Positions 25,984 to 31,004 of a stretch of 64,000 nucleotides of DNA are shown one piece after another. The notes beneath the pieces were generated by a model that worked only from the letters and a program-made list of their open reading frames with translations, did no database searches and was not told where the DNA came from. The stretch lies in the NCBI RefSeq assembly GCF_038025025.1, contig NW_027117349.1:186001-250000 (forward strand), read 5' to 3'. Each line of letters opens with the position of its first letter. Within the stretch, counting starts at the first letter, position 1. The position numbers and the translations under genes were made by a program. The stretch is from Phyllosticta citribraziliensis (taxonomy: Eukaryota).

Positions 25984-27321
25984 ATGGGCTCGGGAAAGCT
26001 CGCCCTCTCGGCCAAGCACGCCCTTCCTTTCAAAACCGGCAACAAGCTGCAGCGCCAGGAGTTCCATCACAAGCAGAAAAAGGTTCGCGACAGCGCTGAA
26101 CGCGACAAGAGATTTCGACGGAAACGCGAGGAAGCAAAGAACCCCGAGCTCAAGAAGGCCAGACTTGCCCAGAATGTACCAGTCACAATCGACAAGAAGC
26201 GCACATGGGACGACGTGGATGGCGACGAGGAGGACATTCTCAACCACGCCGTGGATGTGGAGAGGCTGAAGAGACAGAAGCTTGCCGCCGAGGAGGCTGA
26301 AAGAGACGAGGAAGCAAAGGCGGGAGAAGAGTTCGAGGGTGATGATTCCGAGGACGACCGCGACAGCATGTTGGACGAGTCGGAGAGTGATGGAGAGGAA
26401 GAAGACGAAGATGAGGAAGAAGAGGCCCCCAAGAAGTCTCAGAAGGCCAATTCGGAACCATCGCGACAAGAGCGCGGCTCCAGCCCAACTGGATCGACCA
26501 TGAGCACCAAGTTCAGCATGACACCAGAGTCGTTGGCCGCAAAATTTCCAGCTCTGTTCCAGCCTCCACGAGAACCCAAGATCCTCATCACCACCTCAAT
26601 CAACAGTACTCTACACGCACAAGCTGAAGTTCTCACGGACATATTTCCCAGCAGCACATATATTCGCCGCACCGCTCACCGTTATGGACACAAGTACTCA
26701 ATCCGGGAGATTTCCAAATTTGCCTCGAATCGCGACTACACCGCAGTCGTCGTGCTGAACGAGGACCAAAAGAAGCCTTCGGGCTTAGACATCGTCCATC
26801 TTCCGAATGGTCCCATGTTCCACTTCAGCATCAGCAACTGGGTTGATGGCAAGAAGCTGCCCGGCCACGGAAATGCCACAAACCACTATCCGGAGCTCAT
26901 TCTCAACAACTTCCGCACACCTCTTGGTCTCTTGACCGCACACCTTTTTCGCACCATGTTCCCCCCTCAGCCAGAGATTCAGGGCCGACAAGTCATGACG
27001 TTGCGTAAGTGACGACACCCATCCAACGCCCCTATACCACAACGCTAATCCGCGCTCTCCGCAGACAACCAACGCGACTACATTTTCGTGCGGCGACACC
27101 GGTACATCTTCCGCGACAAGCGACCCTCGGAGAAGAGCGTTACGGACACAGATGGAAAGCCGATCCAGGGCGTAGAAGACATCAAGACCGGACTACAGGA
27201 GCTAGGGCCGCGCTTTACGCTAAAGCTACGCAGGATAGACAAGGGCATCCAGCAAGCAAGCGGGCAGGAGTGGAAGTGGCAGGCCGGCAGCGAAAAGGTG
27301 CGCACGAGGTTCGCGCTGTAG
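25984..27321 (+). CDS. RPF1: Brix-domain ribosome biogenesis factor Rpf1 (intron 27005-27064)
   Basis: [53 protein letters not shown]. Confidence 0.92.
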
Positions 27322-27602
27322 GACGCCTGCATGGTCCTGTTCGAGATGGAAGTACCAGTACAGTATTACCTACCCATCCAACTGTTCTATCGAGTTCGCC
27401 ATTTGACCAGCGCAGTTGTTTGTTCGATATGCTTGCTTTCGGGCATCGCGCTCATCTGATTGGGCCCACGTGAGCGCGATTGTAGGTAATCGGCCCCTGA
27501 CACGCTACTAACACGTGCCGCCCCACACAAAGCCCTACCCCACTTCATAAATCAAAAAAGTCAGTTTCTTTTCAAACTCAAGCTTGATTTCAATCAAGAA
27601 AC

Positions 27603-27768
27603 AGTCCAGTGACGCAGTGGCTAGCGTGTCGTTCTTATATTTATCCCCTCTGCGGGATGAGTATGGCCTCTGTGGTTATGCGAAAGTCGAGGGTTCGACC
27701 GTAAGTTCCGTCTTACATTCATCTGAGATGAATTTTATGCTAACCGCTCGAAAAGCCCTCCTGGACTA
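27603..27768 (+). tRNA. tRNA-Ile(UAU) with a canonical tRNA intron (27640-27677) and a second, spliceosomal-type intron (27701-27755)
   Basis: After removing both introns: acceptor AGTCCAG/CTGGACT (7 of 7 pairs), D-stem ACGC/GCGT with GG in the loop, anticodon arm TCGTT-CT-TAT-AA-TGCGA, variable loop AAGTC, T-arm GAGGG-TTCGACC-CCCTC (5 of 5), discriminator A73. Confidence 0.88.
27701..27755 (+). other. U2-type spliceosomal intron signature inside the tRNA T-arm (between positions 60 and 61)
   Basis: Donor GTAAGT at 27701, branch point GCTAAC at 27739-27744, acceptor AAG ending at 27755. 55 nt, matching mRNA intron size in this window. Confidence 0.82.
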
Positions 27769-27778
27769 GGACTGTAGC

Positions 27779-27784
27779 TTTTTT
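27779..27784 (+). terminator. RNA polymerase III terminator (T6) after the tRNA
   Basis: TTTTTT 10 nt downstream of the discriminator base, followed by further T-runs. Confidence 0.7.
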
Positions 27785-28590
27785 GACCTTTCTTTTCTTT
27801 TTTCTTTTTTTCGTTCCCACGTCGGCTAATGACCGATGATATCATCACTGCCTACCTACAGTACAGTCGTGTTCATTAGGCACACAACCCCTTTTGATAT
27901 ATGATCTATTTGTTCACTGTATCTCTCCCTTGGCTTACCCCTTTGCTTATCCCTTCCCCTGTAGATATTTTACGCACTGACTACTGCCCCCCTGTCCTTA
28001 ACCAATTTTGGTAGATTGATCGTACGGTTATGGTTATGCCCGGCATAAAGAGGACTAGGCAAATGGAGAATCTATGGAGCAAGGCAAGGGAGAGTTACAA
28101 TGACCATATCTCACCACGACTTCATTCTGCACTTCCAACTTCCACCTTATGCTCGACGAATTTCACTCGCACTTCCAGCGCTGCTGTTCAACCAAGACCG
28201 ATTGGTGCTATAGCTGTTGTACCAATTTGACCCCAACCTGTTCCTTGACGCAACCAGCAGACAGTCTCTCATAATATACACACCGCCAATTTGATCTGTC
28301 AGAAGCATTCCGTAGCTACAATCATAAGACGTACATTCCAAATCGCCCAATTTGCAGCGAATGACTCCAAACCGCGTACCAAAAGAAGAACTAAACCAGC
28401 CAAACCAGACGTCAAGAAGAAAGATCCCAGCCCAAGAGGCAATTTGAGAAGTGAAGCAAGCCTTGCTTTTCTCGTGAGTTCATCACCAACCACCGCGTCT
28501 CCTCCTCTCACTGTCCAGCGCCCCCAAAGCCACGCCAACCCCAAAGACACCCAGTTCCCACGCTCCCGCTGTCACCGGGCTTGCAACGAG

Positions 28591-30858
28591 CTACTTGCAG
28601 CAAGAGCCCTTGTCGTTTCCAAAAGCCAAGCGACTGACACCGTCAACGACGCCTCCCACGCCCGCCGCATTGCCCTTTGCCATGCTGGACGGGGTGCTGG
28701 AGTAGCTGGGCGGCACGTCCATGCACGGGTTGCGGTCGAAAAAGTTGCGCGGGCGCAGCAGCAGCGTCATGGGCTCGGCGGGCATGACGGGGAAGTCCTC
28801 GGGCGCCGGGAAGTGCGTGATGCCGAACGTGTGCCACAGGACGACGTCGGTGTTTTCGACGGACGTGTGCGGCGACGCGGCGATCCAGGCGGGCAGGCCG
28901 GCGCTGGGCTCGCCGCTCGTTTGCGGCACGTGGCGGCCGGCCGGGTGGATTTGCTCGTCGTCGTCTGCGGTGGTTTGTAAGCTTTGGGTCGGCTTCGATA
29001 TAGGGGAAGGGGGAGGGGAAAGGGGAAAGGGGTTAATGGTGACAAAGGTGTTTCTTACACTTGGTAACGTGGATGGCGTGACGCGCGAAGCCAGCGCGCT
29101 TCCACACCAGACTGCCCTCCTTGGGCAGCAGAGGGGGCACCTCGCGGCTCACCAGCTTGTAGCTGACGGGCTTGTGCGAGAAGGGGTTGAGCTTGTTCGG
29201 GTTGCACATCTCCCAAGTGCGGCCCGTGTTGCCATCGTAGTCGCTGGTGCCCTCTCCCTGCGTCTTGAGCGGCGTCTTCTTGCACCAGAAGGCGTTGCCG
29301 TAGAAGTTCTCTGCCGAGCCAACAGGGGCCTCGCCGGGAACAGCATCAGCGACCACGACCGAGTTGTTCGGGCCGTCAATATTGGGATCGAGGCGCAAGC
29401 AGAACAGGTGCTGATGGTTGTGCGCATTGACACCAGGGTAGACCTCGGTGCCCCAGCCGTGCAAGTCCTCGCCGGGGTTCATCGCGTAGGTGTTGAGGAT
29501 ACCGGTCAGCTTTATCTCCAGTTGGATCGTGCCGTCCTGGTGGAAGATCCAGTACACGCAGTACTCGTAGTTGGCGGCGGTGAAGATGTGCGAGATTATG
29601 AGCTTGCGCGCCCTCGTCACGGTGCATGATTCATCGCGGAAGTCGGTGTGCTTGAAAAGGATGCCAGCGTCCTCCTCGTGGATGCAGATGGCGTTCTTAA
29701 TCGTCTGTGCTTGGCCTGCCCTGTTCACAAACGATGCGTCCATGTAGTGGATGGCTCCCTTGCAGTCGCATCCGAGGGACAGCGAGTTGGTCATGTATCC
29801 ACCGCCGTACTCACCCAGGTCAAAGGCGTGCTTGCGCTGGTGGGGGTGCTCGGGGTTTCCGTAAGGGACGACCATCTCAGCGAGAGAAATGCGCCAGAAG
29901 ACGGGGCGAACGTTGCCCTTGTCGTTGAAGGTAACGTTAGACAGGACGATACCCTCCTTGTAGTTGAACCCAATGTGCAGGTTCCAGTTTTGCCACGAGA
30001 TGGTGCGGCCATCCATGTTGAAAGAGACTCCTTCGGGCTGCGTAATGTTGATGGGCTTGCAATCCGTCCGGAATCCACTTTCAGCCTCAATGGCAGCAGC
30101 GTGGTAGTTGATCGGCGGCGCGGTGCTGAGCGGTCTCCTGACCTTGGGGATGTCGATGTGAATGATTTCTTGGGTGTCGGCGTTGAAAATGGGGCAAAAG
30201 TCCAGCGGGAAAGCATACTGGCAGTCGTCAGGAGACGGCCGGTAGTACATGAGCGCTTGTTGAAGGCGGATCTGGTTGCCAAAGCGCTCGTCGTAGCCAA
30301 TCGTCCAGGCTGCTCCTTGTTAGCTGCTGATTTCGAGAAGAGGTTTTCCCAGACGTACGGTCACAGTAAACCTTGTGCATATCCTCCGGTGGAATGCCAA
30401 TGATGCCACACTGCTCAATGACCTTGGGGTCCTTCCGTACAATGGCTTCGACACCCTGCAGGTCCTCCATGGTAATCTGAAAACAAGTCAGCATAAGTCT
30501 TCCAGAGAATTGTTGGCACACTCACCAAAGGCTGGACGCCATCAGTCAAGCCCCAAGACACAATGGTCTCTTTCTCCAAATCCACCACGCCATCGTAGAC
30601 CTTGCTTCCTCTCCCAATGCATACAACATCCGCCATGCGCTTTGGCTTTGGAGCCGTCTTGGGGCTCTCCAGCCATGCCATCATCTCCTTCTTCCGGGGC
30701 TCCCATAGTGTCACAGCGTTGAAGTGGACATCTGGGTGTTCCTTCCGGATAATGGCGACAGACTTTTCAATTTCGACCTCAGAAAGGGGATCGAGAGGGT
30801 GGTGAGCAATCTGCCCCGTAACGTGGGAAGCGAGCTGCTTAACGCGTTCGAGCACCAT
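28591..30858 (-). CDS. Copper amine oxidase (TPQ-dependent), 4 exons
   Basis: HPLDPLS, TPQ motif TAANYEY, Cu ligands HNHQH and HFP, EDFPVMP. Introns near 30479-30526, 30310-30358 and 28965-29058. Confidence 0.95.
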
Positions 30859-31004
30859 TGTGTATGATAGAAAGGCTCAAACGTTGCTGAAGAAGGGCGA
30901 GAGCTGCAGCAGACGACGCAGCAAATGAGGAATGGGGTATAGGGTAGAAGAAAAGGTTGGAGTTTAATTCGCAAACGCTGGACTTTCAAGTCGGAGCCTC
31001 CAAG

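What the first reader, a model, noticed from the sequence alone, without database searches (positions are those of the whole stretch)
27691..27706. The intron breaks the 3' end of the B box, so the transcribing polymerase is an open question
Seen: genomic DNA reads GGTTCGACC-GT, so the conserved C61 of the internal B box (GTTCRANNC) is replaced by the intron's first G. The A-box region also has A at position 10 instead of the usual G, compensated in the D-stem by T25. The insert has only a T4 run and a T6 follows the gene, which fits Pol III read-through. Inference: either TFIIIC tolerates the weak box or uses upstream elements, or the tRNA is processed from a Pol II precursor. One possible precursor is read-through from RPF1, which ends 282 nt upstream on the same strand, and this would explain spliceosome access.
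Basis: partly seen in the sequence, partly recalled or inferred. Interest (0 to 1): 0.7.

Follow-up and report, generated by a model that had tools for sequence, protein, structure and literature searches.

The report
Spliceosomal intron clips tRNA promoter box
The only AUA-reading isoleucine tRNA gene found in this fungus is cut by a messenger-RNA-type intron that removes one invariant base of its internal promoter; RNA data show the intron is spliced out, and the gene most likely is still read by the usual tRNA polymerase rather than borrowed from the neighbouring gene.

Summary
Observation confirmed. A 55-nt GT-AG intron (27701-27755) sits between positions 60 and 61 of the genome's only detected tRNA-Ile(UAU), turning B-box C61 (66/66 in intact genes here) into G. 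RNA contigs of two studies skip exactly this intron and keep the ordinary anticodon intron. The spliced RNA seen passes the T6 run, and one run is continuous with the RPF1 3' UTR, so read-through RNA probably exists. But RPF1 is not the general explanation: it flanks 0/52 homologue loci; 21 homologues carry such introns at nine other positions, often with a divergent upstream gene; all keep an oligo-T end. Three tRNA-Asp genes of this genome also lose C61, all four C61-less genes share an upstream TATA-like TTCATAA (6/69 intact genes), and this genome's U6 gene has a GT-AG intron and no B box. A10:T25 is a lineage trait, not linked to the intron. Best reading: Pol III from upstream elements plus a weakened B box, then spliceosome, then tRNA endonuclease (0.6); polymerase not directly tested. 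No paper on spliceosomal tRNA introns found in eight searches; this scan noted such introns before in this and other genomes, those notes reporting no spliced junction.

The parts
25984..27321 (+). RPF1-like (Brix domain) coding region, one intron 27005-27064; possible source of read-through RNA
27363..27415 (+). GT-AG intron in the RPF1 3' UTR
   Evidence: joint 27362->27416 in X1 and X2, not in X3
27544..27550 (+). TATA-like word TTCATAA at -59; 30 nt before a pyrimidine-A start-like site (A 27574); could equally serve as RPF1 poly(A) signal
   Evidence: same word at -42/-44/-42 in the three C61-less Asp genes, 6 of 69 intact genes, 0.11% background; function inferred
27570..27593 (+). two TTTCAA start-like motifs (-33 and -15); candidate starts A27574 and A27592
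   Evidence: motif class upstream of 25 of 67 own tRNA genes against 5% background; starts inferred, not mapped
27603..27639 (+). tRNA-Ile(UAU) exon 1 (positions 1-37) with A box 27610-27621 (A10), anticodon TAT 27636-27638
27640..27677 (+). canonical tRNA intron (37/38), 38 nt; retained in the RNA contigs
   Evidence: ARAGORN i(38,38); X2 record 6 covers 27621-27700 without a joint
27678..27700 (+). exon 2 (positions 38-60), ends in the first nine bases of the B box (27692-27700)
27692..27702 (+). genomic B box with G for C61 and T for C62
   Evidence: no better B box on either strand from -150 to +250
27701..27755 (+). U2-type intron at 60/61, 55 nt: GTAAGT donor, branch site with A27743, AAG acceptor; T4 at 27733-27736
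   Evidence: joint 27700->27756 in X1 and X2, no contig covers the intron
27756..27768 (+). exon 3 (positions 61-73), discriminator A
27779..27784 (+). T6 run, predicted Pol III terminator; further runs T4, T6, T7 at 27793-27811
   Evidence: spliced RNA seen extends at least one base past it

Best explanation
The gene is the working single-copy tRNA-Ile(UAU). It is transcribed mainly by Pol III from its own promoter: TBP/TFIIIB is placed by an upstream TATA-like word and a pyrimidine-A start site, with TFIIIC binding only weakly to a B box that keeps G53-A58 but has lost C61 (inferred). Pol III runs through the intron's T4 and stops at T6 or the next T runs (inferred). The spliceosome then removes the 55-nt intron after transcription, as it does for fungal U6 (excision at the GT-AG ends is shown; that the spliceosome does it is inferred from the signals), which restores C61 and the T arm; only then can the tRNA endonuclease take out the anticodon intron (order fits the contigs; inferred). 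RPF1 read-through RNA crosses the gene and is spliced at the same site, but is a by-product or minor source.
For: Same loss of C61 in 3 of 6 tRNA-Asp(GTC) genes on three other contigs, with exons identical to the intact copies and T5-T9 ends. TTCATAA upstream of 4 of 4 C61-less genes against 6 of 69 intact genes (Fisher 2e-4; motif chosen after seeing them, three are paralogues). U6 of this genome has an 82-nt GT-AG intron, an upstream TATA box, a T6 end and no B box from -200 to +400. 22 of 22 intron-bearing Ile(UAU) genes (7 flank clusters) keep T5 or longer within 60 nt; background 6.8%. 19 of 21 intron-bearing homologues keep or rebuild the 53-61 core of the B box while 20 of 21 have a split A box, the pattern expected if TFIIIC still matters. 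No RPF1 beside 52 homologue loci; a G-patch/DUF4187 gene lies upstream on the opposite strand in all 8 loci where it was found. tau138 is encoded, with the residues that read T55-C56-G57 aligned as kept. Literature: fungal U6 promoters may lack B blocks and S. pombe U6 is a Pol III gene spliced by the spliceosome (PMC5855946); C. merolae tRNA genes with boxes split by introns are proposed to rely on an upstream TATA (PMC3978253).
Against: The only transcripts seen are long: the junction-specific 31-mer reaches G27785, past T6, in both runs, and X1 record 2 runs from RPF1 to 27691, overlapping the spliced record by 30 nt. The base pair at 61 is read directly by yeast tau138 (R366, K370; PMC11724288 section 26) and the R366 position aligns as kept here (weak alignment), so binding should fall. 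In this genome the nearest Pfam-identified upstream gene is co-oriented for 4 of 4 intron-bearing tRNA genes with one identified (a fifth had none) against 4 of 9 intact genes (p 0.10). T runs are not significantly depleted in the introns (T5 in 2 of 35, 3.6 expected, p 0.28). TTCATAA was found upstream of 0 of 40 homologues from other fungi, including the two with no B box. A TATA word 30 nt before a start also fits a Pol II core promoter. No ChIP, no end mapping.
Confidence: 0.6

Rival explanations
1. The tRNA is cut mainly out of RPF1 read-through transcripts made by Pol II; the intron is spliced co-transcriptionally like a 3' UTR intron, and RNase P and tRNase Z release the tRNA, as for the Pol II-made tRNA-Sec of Trypanosoma brucei.
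For: X1 contigs are continuous from the RPF1 coding region through a spliced 3' UTR intron into the tRNA; spliced RNA passes T6 in X1 and X2. RPF1 stops 281 nt before the gene on the same strand. Co-oriented upstream genes in 4 of 4 identified cases in this genome. Precedent in PMC2943599 (abstract).
Against: A contig does not show one molecule; in X2 the RPF1 contig ends at 27535 and the tRNA contig starts at 27621. 0 of 52 homologue loci have RPF1; 8 have a divergent neighbour. Oligo-T ends and start-like motifs are kept, which a hosted tRNA would not need. Libraries that show mRNA splicing favour long RNA over a 200-nt precursor (inference; library type not on record).
Confidence: 0.18
2. 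The gene has its own Pol II promoter (TATA-like word at -59, start near 27574), giving a capped precursor that recruits the spliceosome as mRNAs do; intron gains then cost nothing to the internal boxes.
For: L100 and L103 have four introns and no B box anywhere from -150 to +250, with the A box split as well. TATA-to-start spacing of 30 nt fits Pol II too. Spliced RNA passes T6. Divergent neighbours 100-430 nt away could supply a two-way promoter.
Against: 19 of 21 intron-bearing homologues keep the B-box core; 22 of 22 keep an oligo-T end; none of 35 introns holds T6 or longer (1.1 expected, not significant). The same upstream layout is seen at intact tRNA genes.
Confidence: 0.14
3. The insert is removed not by the spliceosome but by the tRNA endonuclease or another nuclease-ligase route, as for non-canonical T-loop introns of archaea and red algae; the GT-AG look is a relic.
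For: Non-canonical tRNA introns at 53/54, 56/57 and 59/60 are known in archaea and in some algae (PMC4090602). No lariat was seen here.
Against: Donor, branch and acceptor signals are kept while the rest diverges: branch-like site in 34 of 35 distinct introns, GT/GC..AG in 1 of 468 slid windows. The RNA junction is exactly at the GT-AG ends and occurs while the canonical intron is still in place.
Confidence: 0.04
4. The gene is dead or barely used; the splicing seen is only the spliceosome acting on passing RPF1 RNA, and AUA is read by another tRNA.
For: Mature tRNA was not observed. Searches for other UAU genes were pattern-based and could miss a diverged or interrupted copy.
Against: One UAU gene only by three searches; perfect acceptor and T stems after splicing and two changes only from an intronless homologue L111; the single S. 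pombe tI(UAU) gene is essential (PMC11912914).
Confidence: 0.04

Closest known systems
Fungal U6 snRNA genes with mRNA-type introns (S. pombe; up to four introns per gene in other fungi; Tani and Ohshima 1989, Canzler et al. 2016 as cited in PMC5855946)
   Same: Short non-coding RNA gene with Pol III-type ends whose intron has U2 donor, branch and acceptor signals; promoter may lack a B block; this genome's own U6 is such a gene.
   Different: Substrate is a tRNA that also has a canonical endonuclease intron; the intron removes a base of the promoter instead of carrying a B box as the S. pombe U6 intron does (none found here).
Non-canonical and permuted tRNA genes of Cyanidioschyzon merolae, nucleomorphs and crenarchaea (PMC3978253, PMC4090602)
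   Same: Introns at D-arm and T-arm positions that split the A and B boxes; upstream TATA-like word and downstream T run proposed as the working promoter and terminator.
   Different: Those introns are taken out by the tRNA endonuclease at bulge-helix-bulge motifs, and C. merolae lacks recognisable TFC1/TFC3; here the introns have spliceosomal signals and tau138 is encoded.
Pol II-transcribed tRNA-Sec of Trypanosoma brucei (PMC2943599, abstract)
   Same: A tRNA lying downstream of a protein gene on the same strand and crossed by its RNA.
   Different: There the gene sits inside a polycistron and needs an outside promoter; here own terminator and start-like motifs are kept and the host context is not conserved.
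Standard type 2 (A box/B box) Pol III tRNA genes
   Same: Cloverleaf, canonical 37/38 intron, A box, first nine B-box bases, oligo-T end.
   Different: C61, present in 66 of 66 intact B boxes here and contacted by tau138 in yeast, is missing from the DNA and appears only after splicing.

Membership tests
U2-type spliceosomal intron | GT donor and AG acceptor at the ends that restore the exon | tested here: met
   only GT..AG deletion of 48 that give a tRNA, standard 73 nt
U2-type spliceosomal intron | branch-site consensus near the 3' end | tested here: met
   CTAAC at 27740-27744, branch A 12 nt before the end
U2-type spliceosomal intron | removed from RNA exactly at those ends | tested here: met
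   joint 27700->27756 in contigs of 2 of 2 same-organism runs, two studies; runs are RNA by their skipped RPF1 introns, not by record
U2-type spliceosomal intron | lariat intermediate and dependence on snRNPs | not testable with these tools
   needs lariat RT-PCR or prp mutants
Type 2 Pol III tRNA gene | B box with invariant C61 in the DNA | tested here: not met
   G at 27701; 66 of 66 intact own B boxes have C; no relocated box -150 to +250
Type 2 Pol III tRNA gene | A box in the D arm | tested here: inconclusive
   uninterrupted, but A10 against G in 65 and C in 2 of 67 own genes; A10 is usual for Ile(UAU) homologues
Type 2 Pol III tRNA gene | oligo-T terminator after the gene, none inside | tested here: met
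   T6 10 nt after the gene, only T4 inside; use as an end not shown, and spliced RNA past it exists
Type 2 Pol III tRNA gene | TFIIIC, TFIIIB and Pol III occupancy | not testable with these tools
   tau138 gene present; occupancy needs ChIP
Pol II-hosted tRNA (T. brucei tRNA-Sec type) | lies inside a Pol II transcription unit | tested here: inconclusive
   contig continuity with RPF1 in X1, gap 27536-27620 in X2
Pol II-hosted tRNA (T. brucei tRNA-Sec type) | host context shared by relatives | tested here: not met
   RPF1 beside 0 of 52 homologue loci, flanks up to 2.5 kb, some short; divergent neighbour in 8
Pol II-hosted tRNA (T. brucei tRNA-Sec type) | expression falls on Pol II, not Pol III, depletion | not testable with these tools
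   bench test
S. pombe U6-type gene (B box inside the intron) | replacement B box in the intron or downstream | tested here: not met
   best site on either strand is the damaged native box
Endonuclease-spliced non-canonical tRNA intron (BHB type) | bulge-helix-bulge motif at the junctions | not tested
   no dedicated BHB search was run
Endonuclease-spliced non-canonical tRNA intron (BHB type) | no need for spliceosomal signals | tested here: not met
   signals kept in 34 of 35 distinct introns, 1 of 468 slid windows GT/GC..AG

The most novel reading that the evidence does not exclude
Filamentous ascomycetes have a class of tRNA genes, essential single-copy ones among them, that have let go of the internal promoter: they start from an upstream TATA-like/initiator module without a usable B box (L100 and L103 have neither box intact), by Pol III without TFIIIC or by Pol II, and mature through the spliceosome and then the tRNA endonuclease. 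Once freed, they gain mRNA-type introns again and again, at ten positions in tRNA-Ile(UAU) alone, and are invisible to standard tRNA finders.
Probability: 0.4. Interest if true: 0.92.

Novelty: new variant of a known kind. Interest (0 to 1): 0.8.

Why it matters
Current reviews keep spliceosomal introns to Pol II transcripts and a few snRNA and rRNA genes, and tRNA introns to the endonuclease (PMC12530127, PMC10275265, PMC5855946). Here a tRNA gene's intron is seen removed at GT-AG ends in RNA, and the gene lacks a promoter base thought invariant. It gives a natural allelic series (intact, A-box-split, C61-less, no B box) to test how little TFIIIC a tRNA gene needs and how the spliceosome engages a transcript not made by Pol II. 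It also means fungal tRNA annotations miss genes: ARAGORN called 0 of 22 intron-bearing genes as Ile(tat) from DNA, and AUA decoding would depend on mRNA splicing.

Tried and rejected
ARAGORN and Rfam on the window: no gene. Relocated B box in the intron or flanks: none. B-box weight-matrix score as a test of function: 7.9 in DNA against 15.8 spliced and 7.6-17.3 for own genes, but it hangs on the pseudocount and 24% of random 570-nt stretches reach 8, so not used. T-run depletion in introns as a Pol III mark: not significant. A10:T25 as a sign of promoter decay: rejected. RPF1 synteny: none. Co-orientation of upstream genes: 4 of 4 against 4 of 9 (only 9 of 33 control genes had an identified neighbour within 1.5 kb), p 0.10, no verdict. 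Pattern for further 60/61 introns in this genome: 7 matches, only this gene was a tRNA by ARAGORN and by the matched text; the tighter pattern gave 7 matches, 4 tRNA genes and 3 mRNA introns. Suspected missing Ser(UGA): first pattern uninformative, second found an ordinary gene. Rfam tRNA search of the genome scored only 63 of 714 candidates, so the own-genome set is a sample. Absence of contigs over the intron is consistent with efficient splicing, but a filter drops records, so it is no proof. 11 of 52 metagenome loci were dropped before counts (L104, L109, L118, L120, L124, L125, L137, L142, L143, L145, L148: cut off, other D-loop form, or non-standard intron ends). Look-up of earlier findings by sequence gave nothing.

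Full report
Anatomy. The window lies at G000:C12:186001-250000 of a 31.35-Mb genome in 22 contigs; its introns and genes read as those of a filamentous ascomycete (inference). ARAGORN and Rfam find no tRNA in it. By hand the gene is exon 1 27603-27639, a 38-nt canonical intron, exon 2 27678-27700, a 55-nt insert 27701-27755 and exon 3 27756-27768. The insert has a GTAAGT donor, a CTAAC branch site (A27743) and an AAG end. Without it ARAGORN calls tRNA-Ile(tat); of 729 trial deletions 48 give a tRNA and one has GT..AG ends. It is the only UAU gene found by a DNA search, an A-box/anticodon pattern (44 matches, one UAU tRNA and two elongator Met by eye) and an anticodon-arm pattern with one mismatch (5 matches, four not tRNAs).

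The B box. The DNA holds positions 52-60 and then the intron's GT, so C61 is G. C61 is present in 66 of 66 intact B boxes among 67 own tRNA-type genes examined (61 Rfam matches and 6 found beside them or by pattern; the 67th is itself intron-split). In the yeast TFIIIC structure tau138 R366 and K370 contact the template G of this pair (PMC11724288 section 26). tau138 is encoded here; in a weak alignment to the yeast chain the R139, S140 and R366 positions are kept, and K370 falls three residues beyond the aligned stretch, where an ungapped reading gives S. No better B box lies on either strand from -150 to +250. A10 is unique among the 67 genes but is the usual state of this tRNA: A10:T25 in 38 of 42 rebuilt genes, 16 of 20 without a spliceosomal intron.

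RNA. Nine runs were listed; four were laid. X1 and X2 (same organism, two studies, Logan contigs, RNA by their skipped RPF1 introns) both show the joint 27700->27756 with GT..AG ends, 39 and 80 letters on the short side; no contig covers the insert. The canonical intron is still present in these contigs, which fits spliceosome first, endonuclease second. The same data speak for long RNA: if the contigs were built from 31-letter words, the last junction-specific word ends at G27785, one base past T6, and in X1 the RPF1 contig runs to 27691 and overlaps the spliced contig by 30 nt. In X2 the RPF1 contig stops at 27535 and the tRNA contig begins at 27621. Contigs give no strand, ends or single molecules, and their run-on to 28300 and beyond probably joins the 3' end of the converging minus-strand gene. 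So read-through RNA that is spliced at this intron very probably exists; whether it is the tRNA's source is not shown.

Homologues. One pattern scan of metagenome contigs gave 52 loci. A spliced alignment that allowed only GT/GC..AG introns rebuilt 41 cleanly (at least 6 of 7 acceptor and 5 of 5 T-stem pairs); 11 were dropped. 21 of the 41 carry one to four introns, at 13/14, 15/16, 46/47, 52/53, 53/54, 55/56, 61/62, 63/64 and 67/68; none shares 60/61. The pattern spans positions 16-37, so introns there would be missed. The ends are GT/GC..AG by construction; the independent checks are the restored stems, a branch-like site in 34 of 35 distinct introns and GT/GC..AG in only 1 of 468 slid windows. 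With the window they fall into 7 flank clusters of 23. L111 (no intron), L141 (15/16 and 52/53) and the window (60/61) have near-identical exons and the same first trailer bases, which suggests separate recent gains (no tree was built). RPF1 matches none of the 52 loci. Of 34 neighbouring frames scanned, a G-patch/DUF4187 gene lies upstream on the opposite strand in L099, L100, L102, L115, L126, L139, L146 and L150; a same-strand TPR fragment lies upstream in L101 and L112; L121 and L141 gave no family. All 22 intron-bearing genes keep T5 or longer within 60 nt (16 of 20 intronless; background 6.8%). 17 of 21 keep a strong B box, in L141 rebuilt by the intron's last G, two more (L128, L139) keep 53-61 with the intron's AG supplying 52-53, and L100 and L103 have none; 20 of 21 have a split A box.

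This genome. A tRNA with a CCC anticodon (L068) has a 54-nt GT-AG intron at 53/54 whose last AG rebuilds the B box. All four C61-less genes have TTCATAA upstream (-59, -42, -44, -42), about 30 nt before a pyrimidine-A, against 6 of 69 intact genes and 0.11% of random stretches. The word was picked after seeing these genes, three are paralogues, and it is absent upstream of 40 homologues of other fungi, so it is a lead. The U6 gene has an 82-nt GT-AG intron, an upstream TATA box, a T6 end and no B box from -200 to +400; its splicing was not checked in RNA. Against my reading, the identified upstream neighbours of the intron-bearing tRNA genes here are co-oriented in 4 of 4 cases (Brix, TANGO2, P450, amino-acid permease; the fifth had none identified) against 4 of 9 for intact genes, p 0.10, and T runs are not depleted in the introns.

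Mechanism. Shown: the intron's place and signals, loss of C61 in DNA, exact excision in RNA, recurrence in other tRNA genes and fungi without RPF1. Inferred: Pol III start from upstream elements with weak TFIIIC help, termination in the T runs, spliceosomal excision after transcription, then endonuclease splicing. I put this at 0.6, RPF1 hosting at 0.18, an own Pol II promoter at 0.14, other routes or a dead gene at 0.04 each.

Literature. Ten searches of the held library (Creative Commons PubMed Central and bioRxiv only); eight aimed at spliceosomal introns in tRNA genes listed no such report by title or abstract start; two searches concerned promoters. Seen: PMC11724288 passages and section 26; PMC5855946 passages and section 6; passages only of PMC4090602 (no occurrence of 'spliceosom'), PMC8007984, PMC12530127, PMC10275265 (first 300,000 characters held), PMC11912914, PMC3395662, PMC7279448, PMC3978253; abstract of PMC2943599. 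Tani and Ohshima 1989, Frendewey 1990, Canzler 2016 and Ohira and Suzuki 2016 were seen only as cited in those reviews. No supplements were read; subscription papers and genome-paper supplements could hold a prior mention. Earlier notes of this scan describe such introns in other tRNA genes of this and other genomes; they are AI notes, not independent support, and those that comment on RNA say the excision was not shown.

Verdict. The broken B box is one case of a recurring class, the spliced junction is now seen in RNA, and the balance favours Pol III with upstream help over RPF1 hosting, without a direct test. New variant of a known kind (Pol III-type RNA genes with spliceosomal introns, so far U6), interest 0.8.

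Noticed in passing
L189, L191, L193 (G000 C1, C7, C11): Three of six tRNA-Asp(GTC) genes have GT-AG introns at 59/60 that also remove C61 from the B box.
   Followed up: yes
L068:301-459 (G000:C9:1169468 onward; intron 1169552-1169605): tRNA with CCC anticodon and a 54-nt GT-AG intron at 53/54 whose last AG rebuilds the B box; a second, ordinary Gly(CCC) gene lies at C12:341976.
   Followed up: partly
L151 (G000:C13:588044; intron 588116-588197): U6 gene with an 82-nt A/C-rich GT-AG intron, upstream TATA box and no B box nearby.
   Followed up: partly
L100, L103 (metagenome contigs): tRNA-Ile(UAU) genes with four spliceosomal-type introns plus the canonical one; both A and B boxes split, no replacement B box.
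   Followed up: partly
window 27363-27415: Intron in the RPF1 3' UTR, spliced in X1 and X2, not skipped in the related organism of X3.
   Followed up: no
run X3 record 8 (laid on 27613-27700): A related organism's contig holds two tRNA-Ile-like pieces in a row, the second starting at position 14 and continuing into exon 3 with T at position 61; chimera, tandem copy or relaxed position 61 is not resolved.
   Followed up: no
L109, L120, L148: Homologues whose apparent introns have non-standard ends (a GG donor at 13/14; a 57/58 insert with donor and branch site but no AG).
   Followed up: no
e.g. G000:C1:2562363, C2:684962, C9:518128: About 19 dispersed tRNA-like genes (counted by eye) with good A and B boxes but an extended anticodon stem and no standard anticodon loop.
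   Followed up: no
e.g. G000:C3:65539, C5:1025506, C7:94865, C8:1271233, C9:667208: A five-copy family with A and B boxes about 100 nt apart and no clear tRNA body; possible Pol III RNA or SINE.
   Followed up: no
window 27633 and 27679: T31 faces T39 in the anticodon stem in 42 of 42 rebuilt Ile(UAU) genes; the elongator Met gene L075 shows the same pair.
   Followed up: partly
window 27717-27733: Perfect 7-bp hairpin inside the intron between donor and branch site.
   Followed up: no
window about 28600-30870, minus strand: Converging gene that looks like a copper amine oxidase (recalled from motifs, not tested); its 3' end probably explains why spliced contigs run on past 28300.
   Followed up: no
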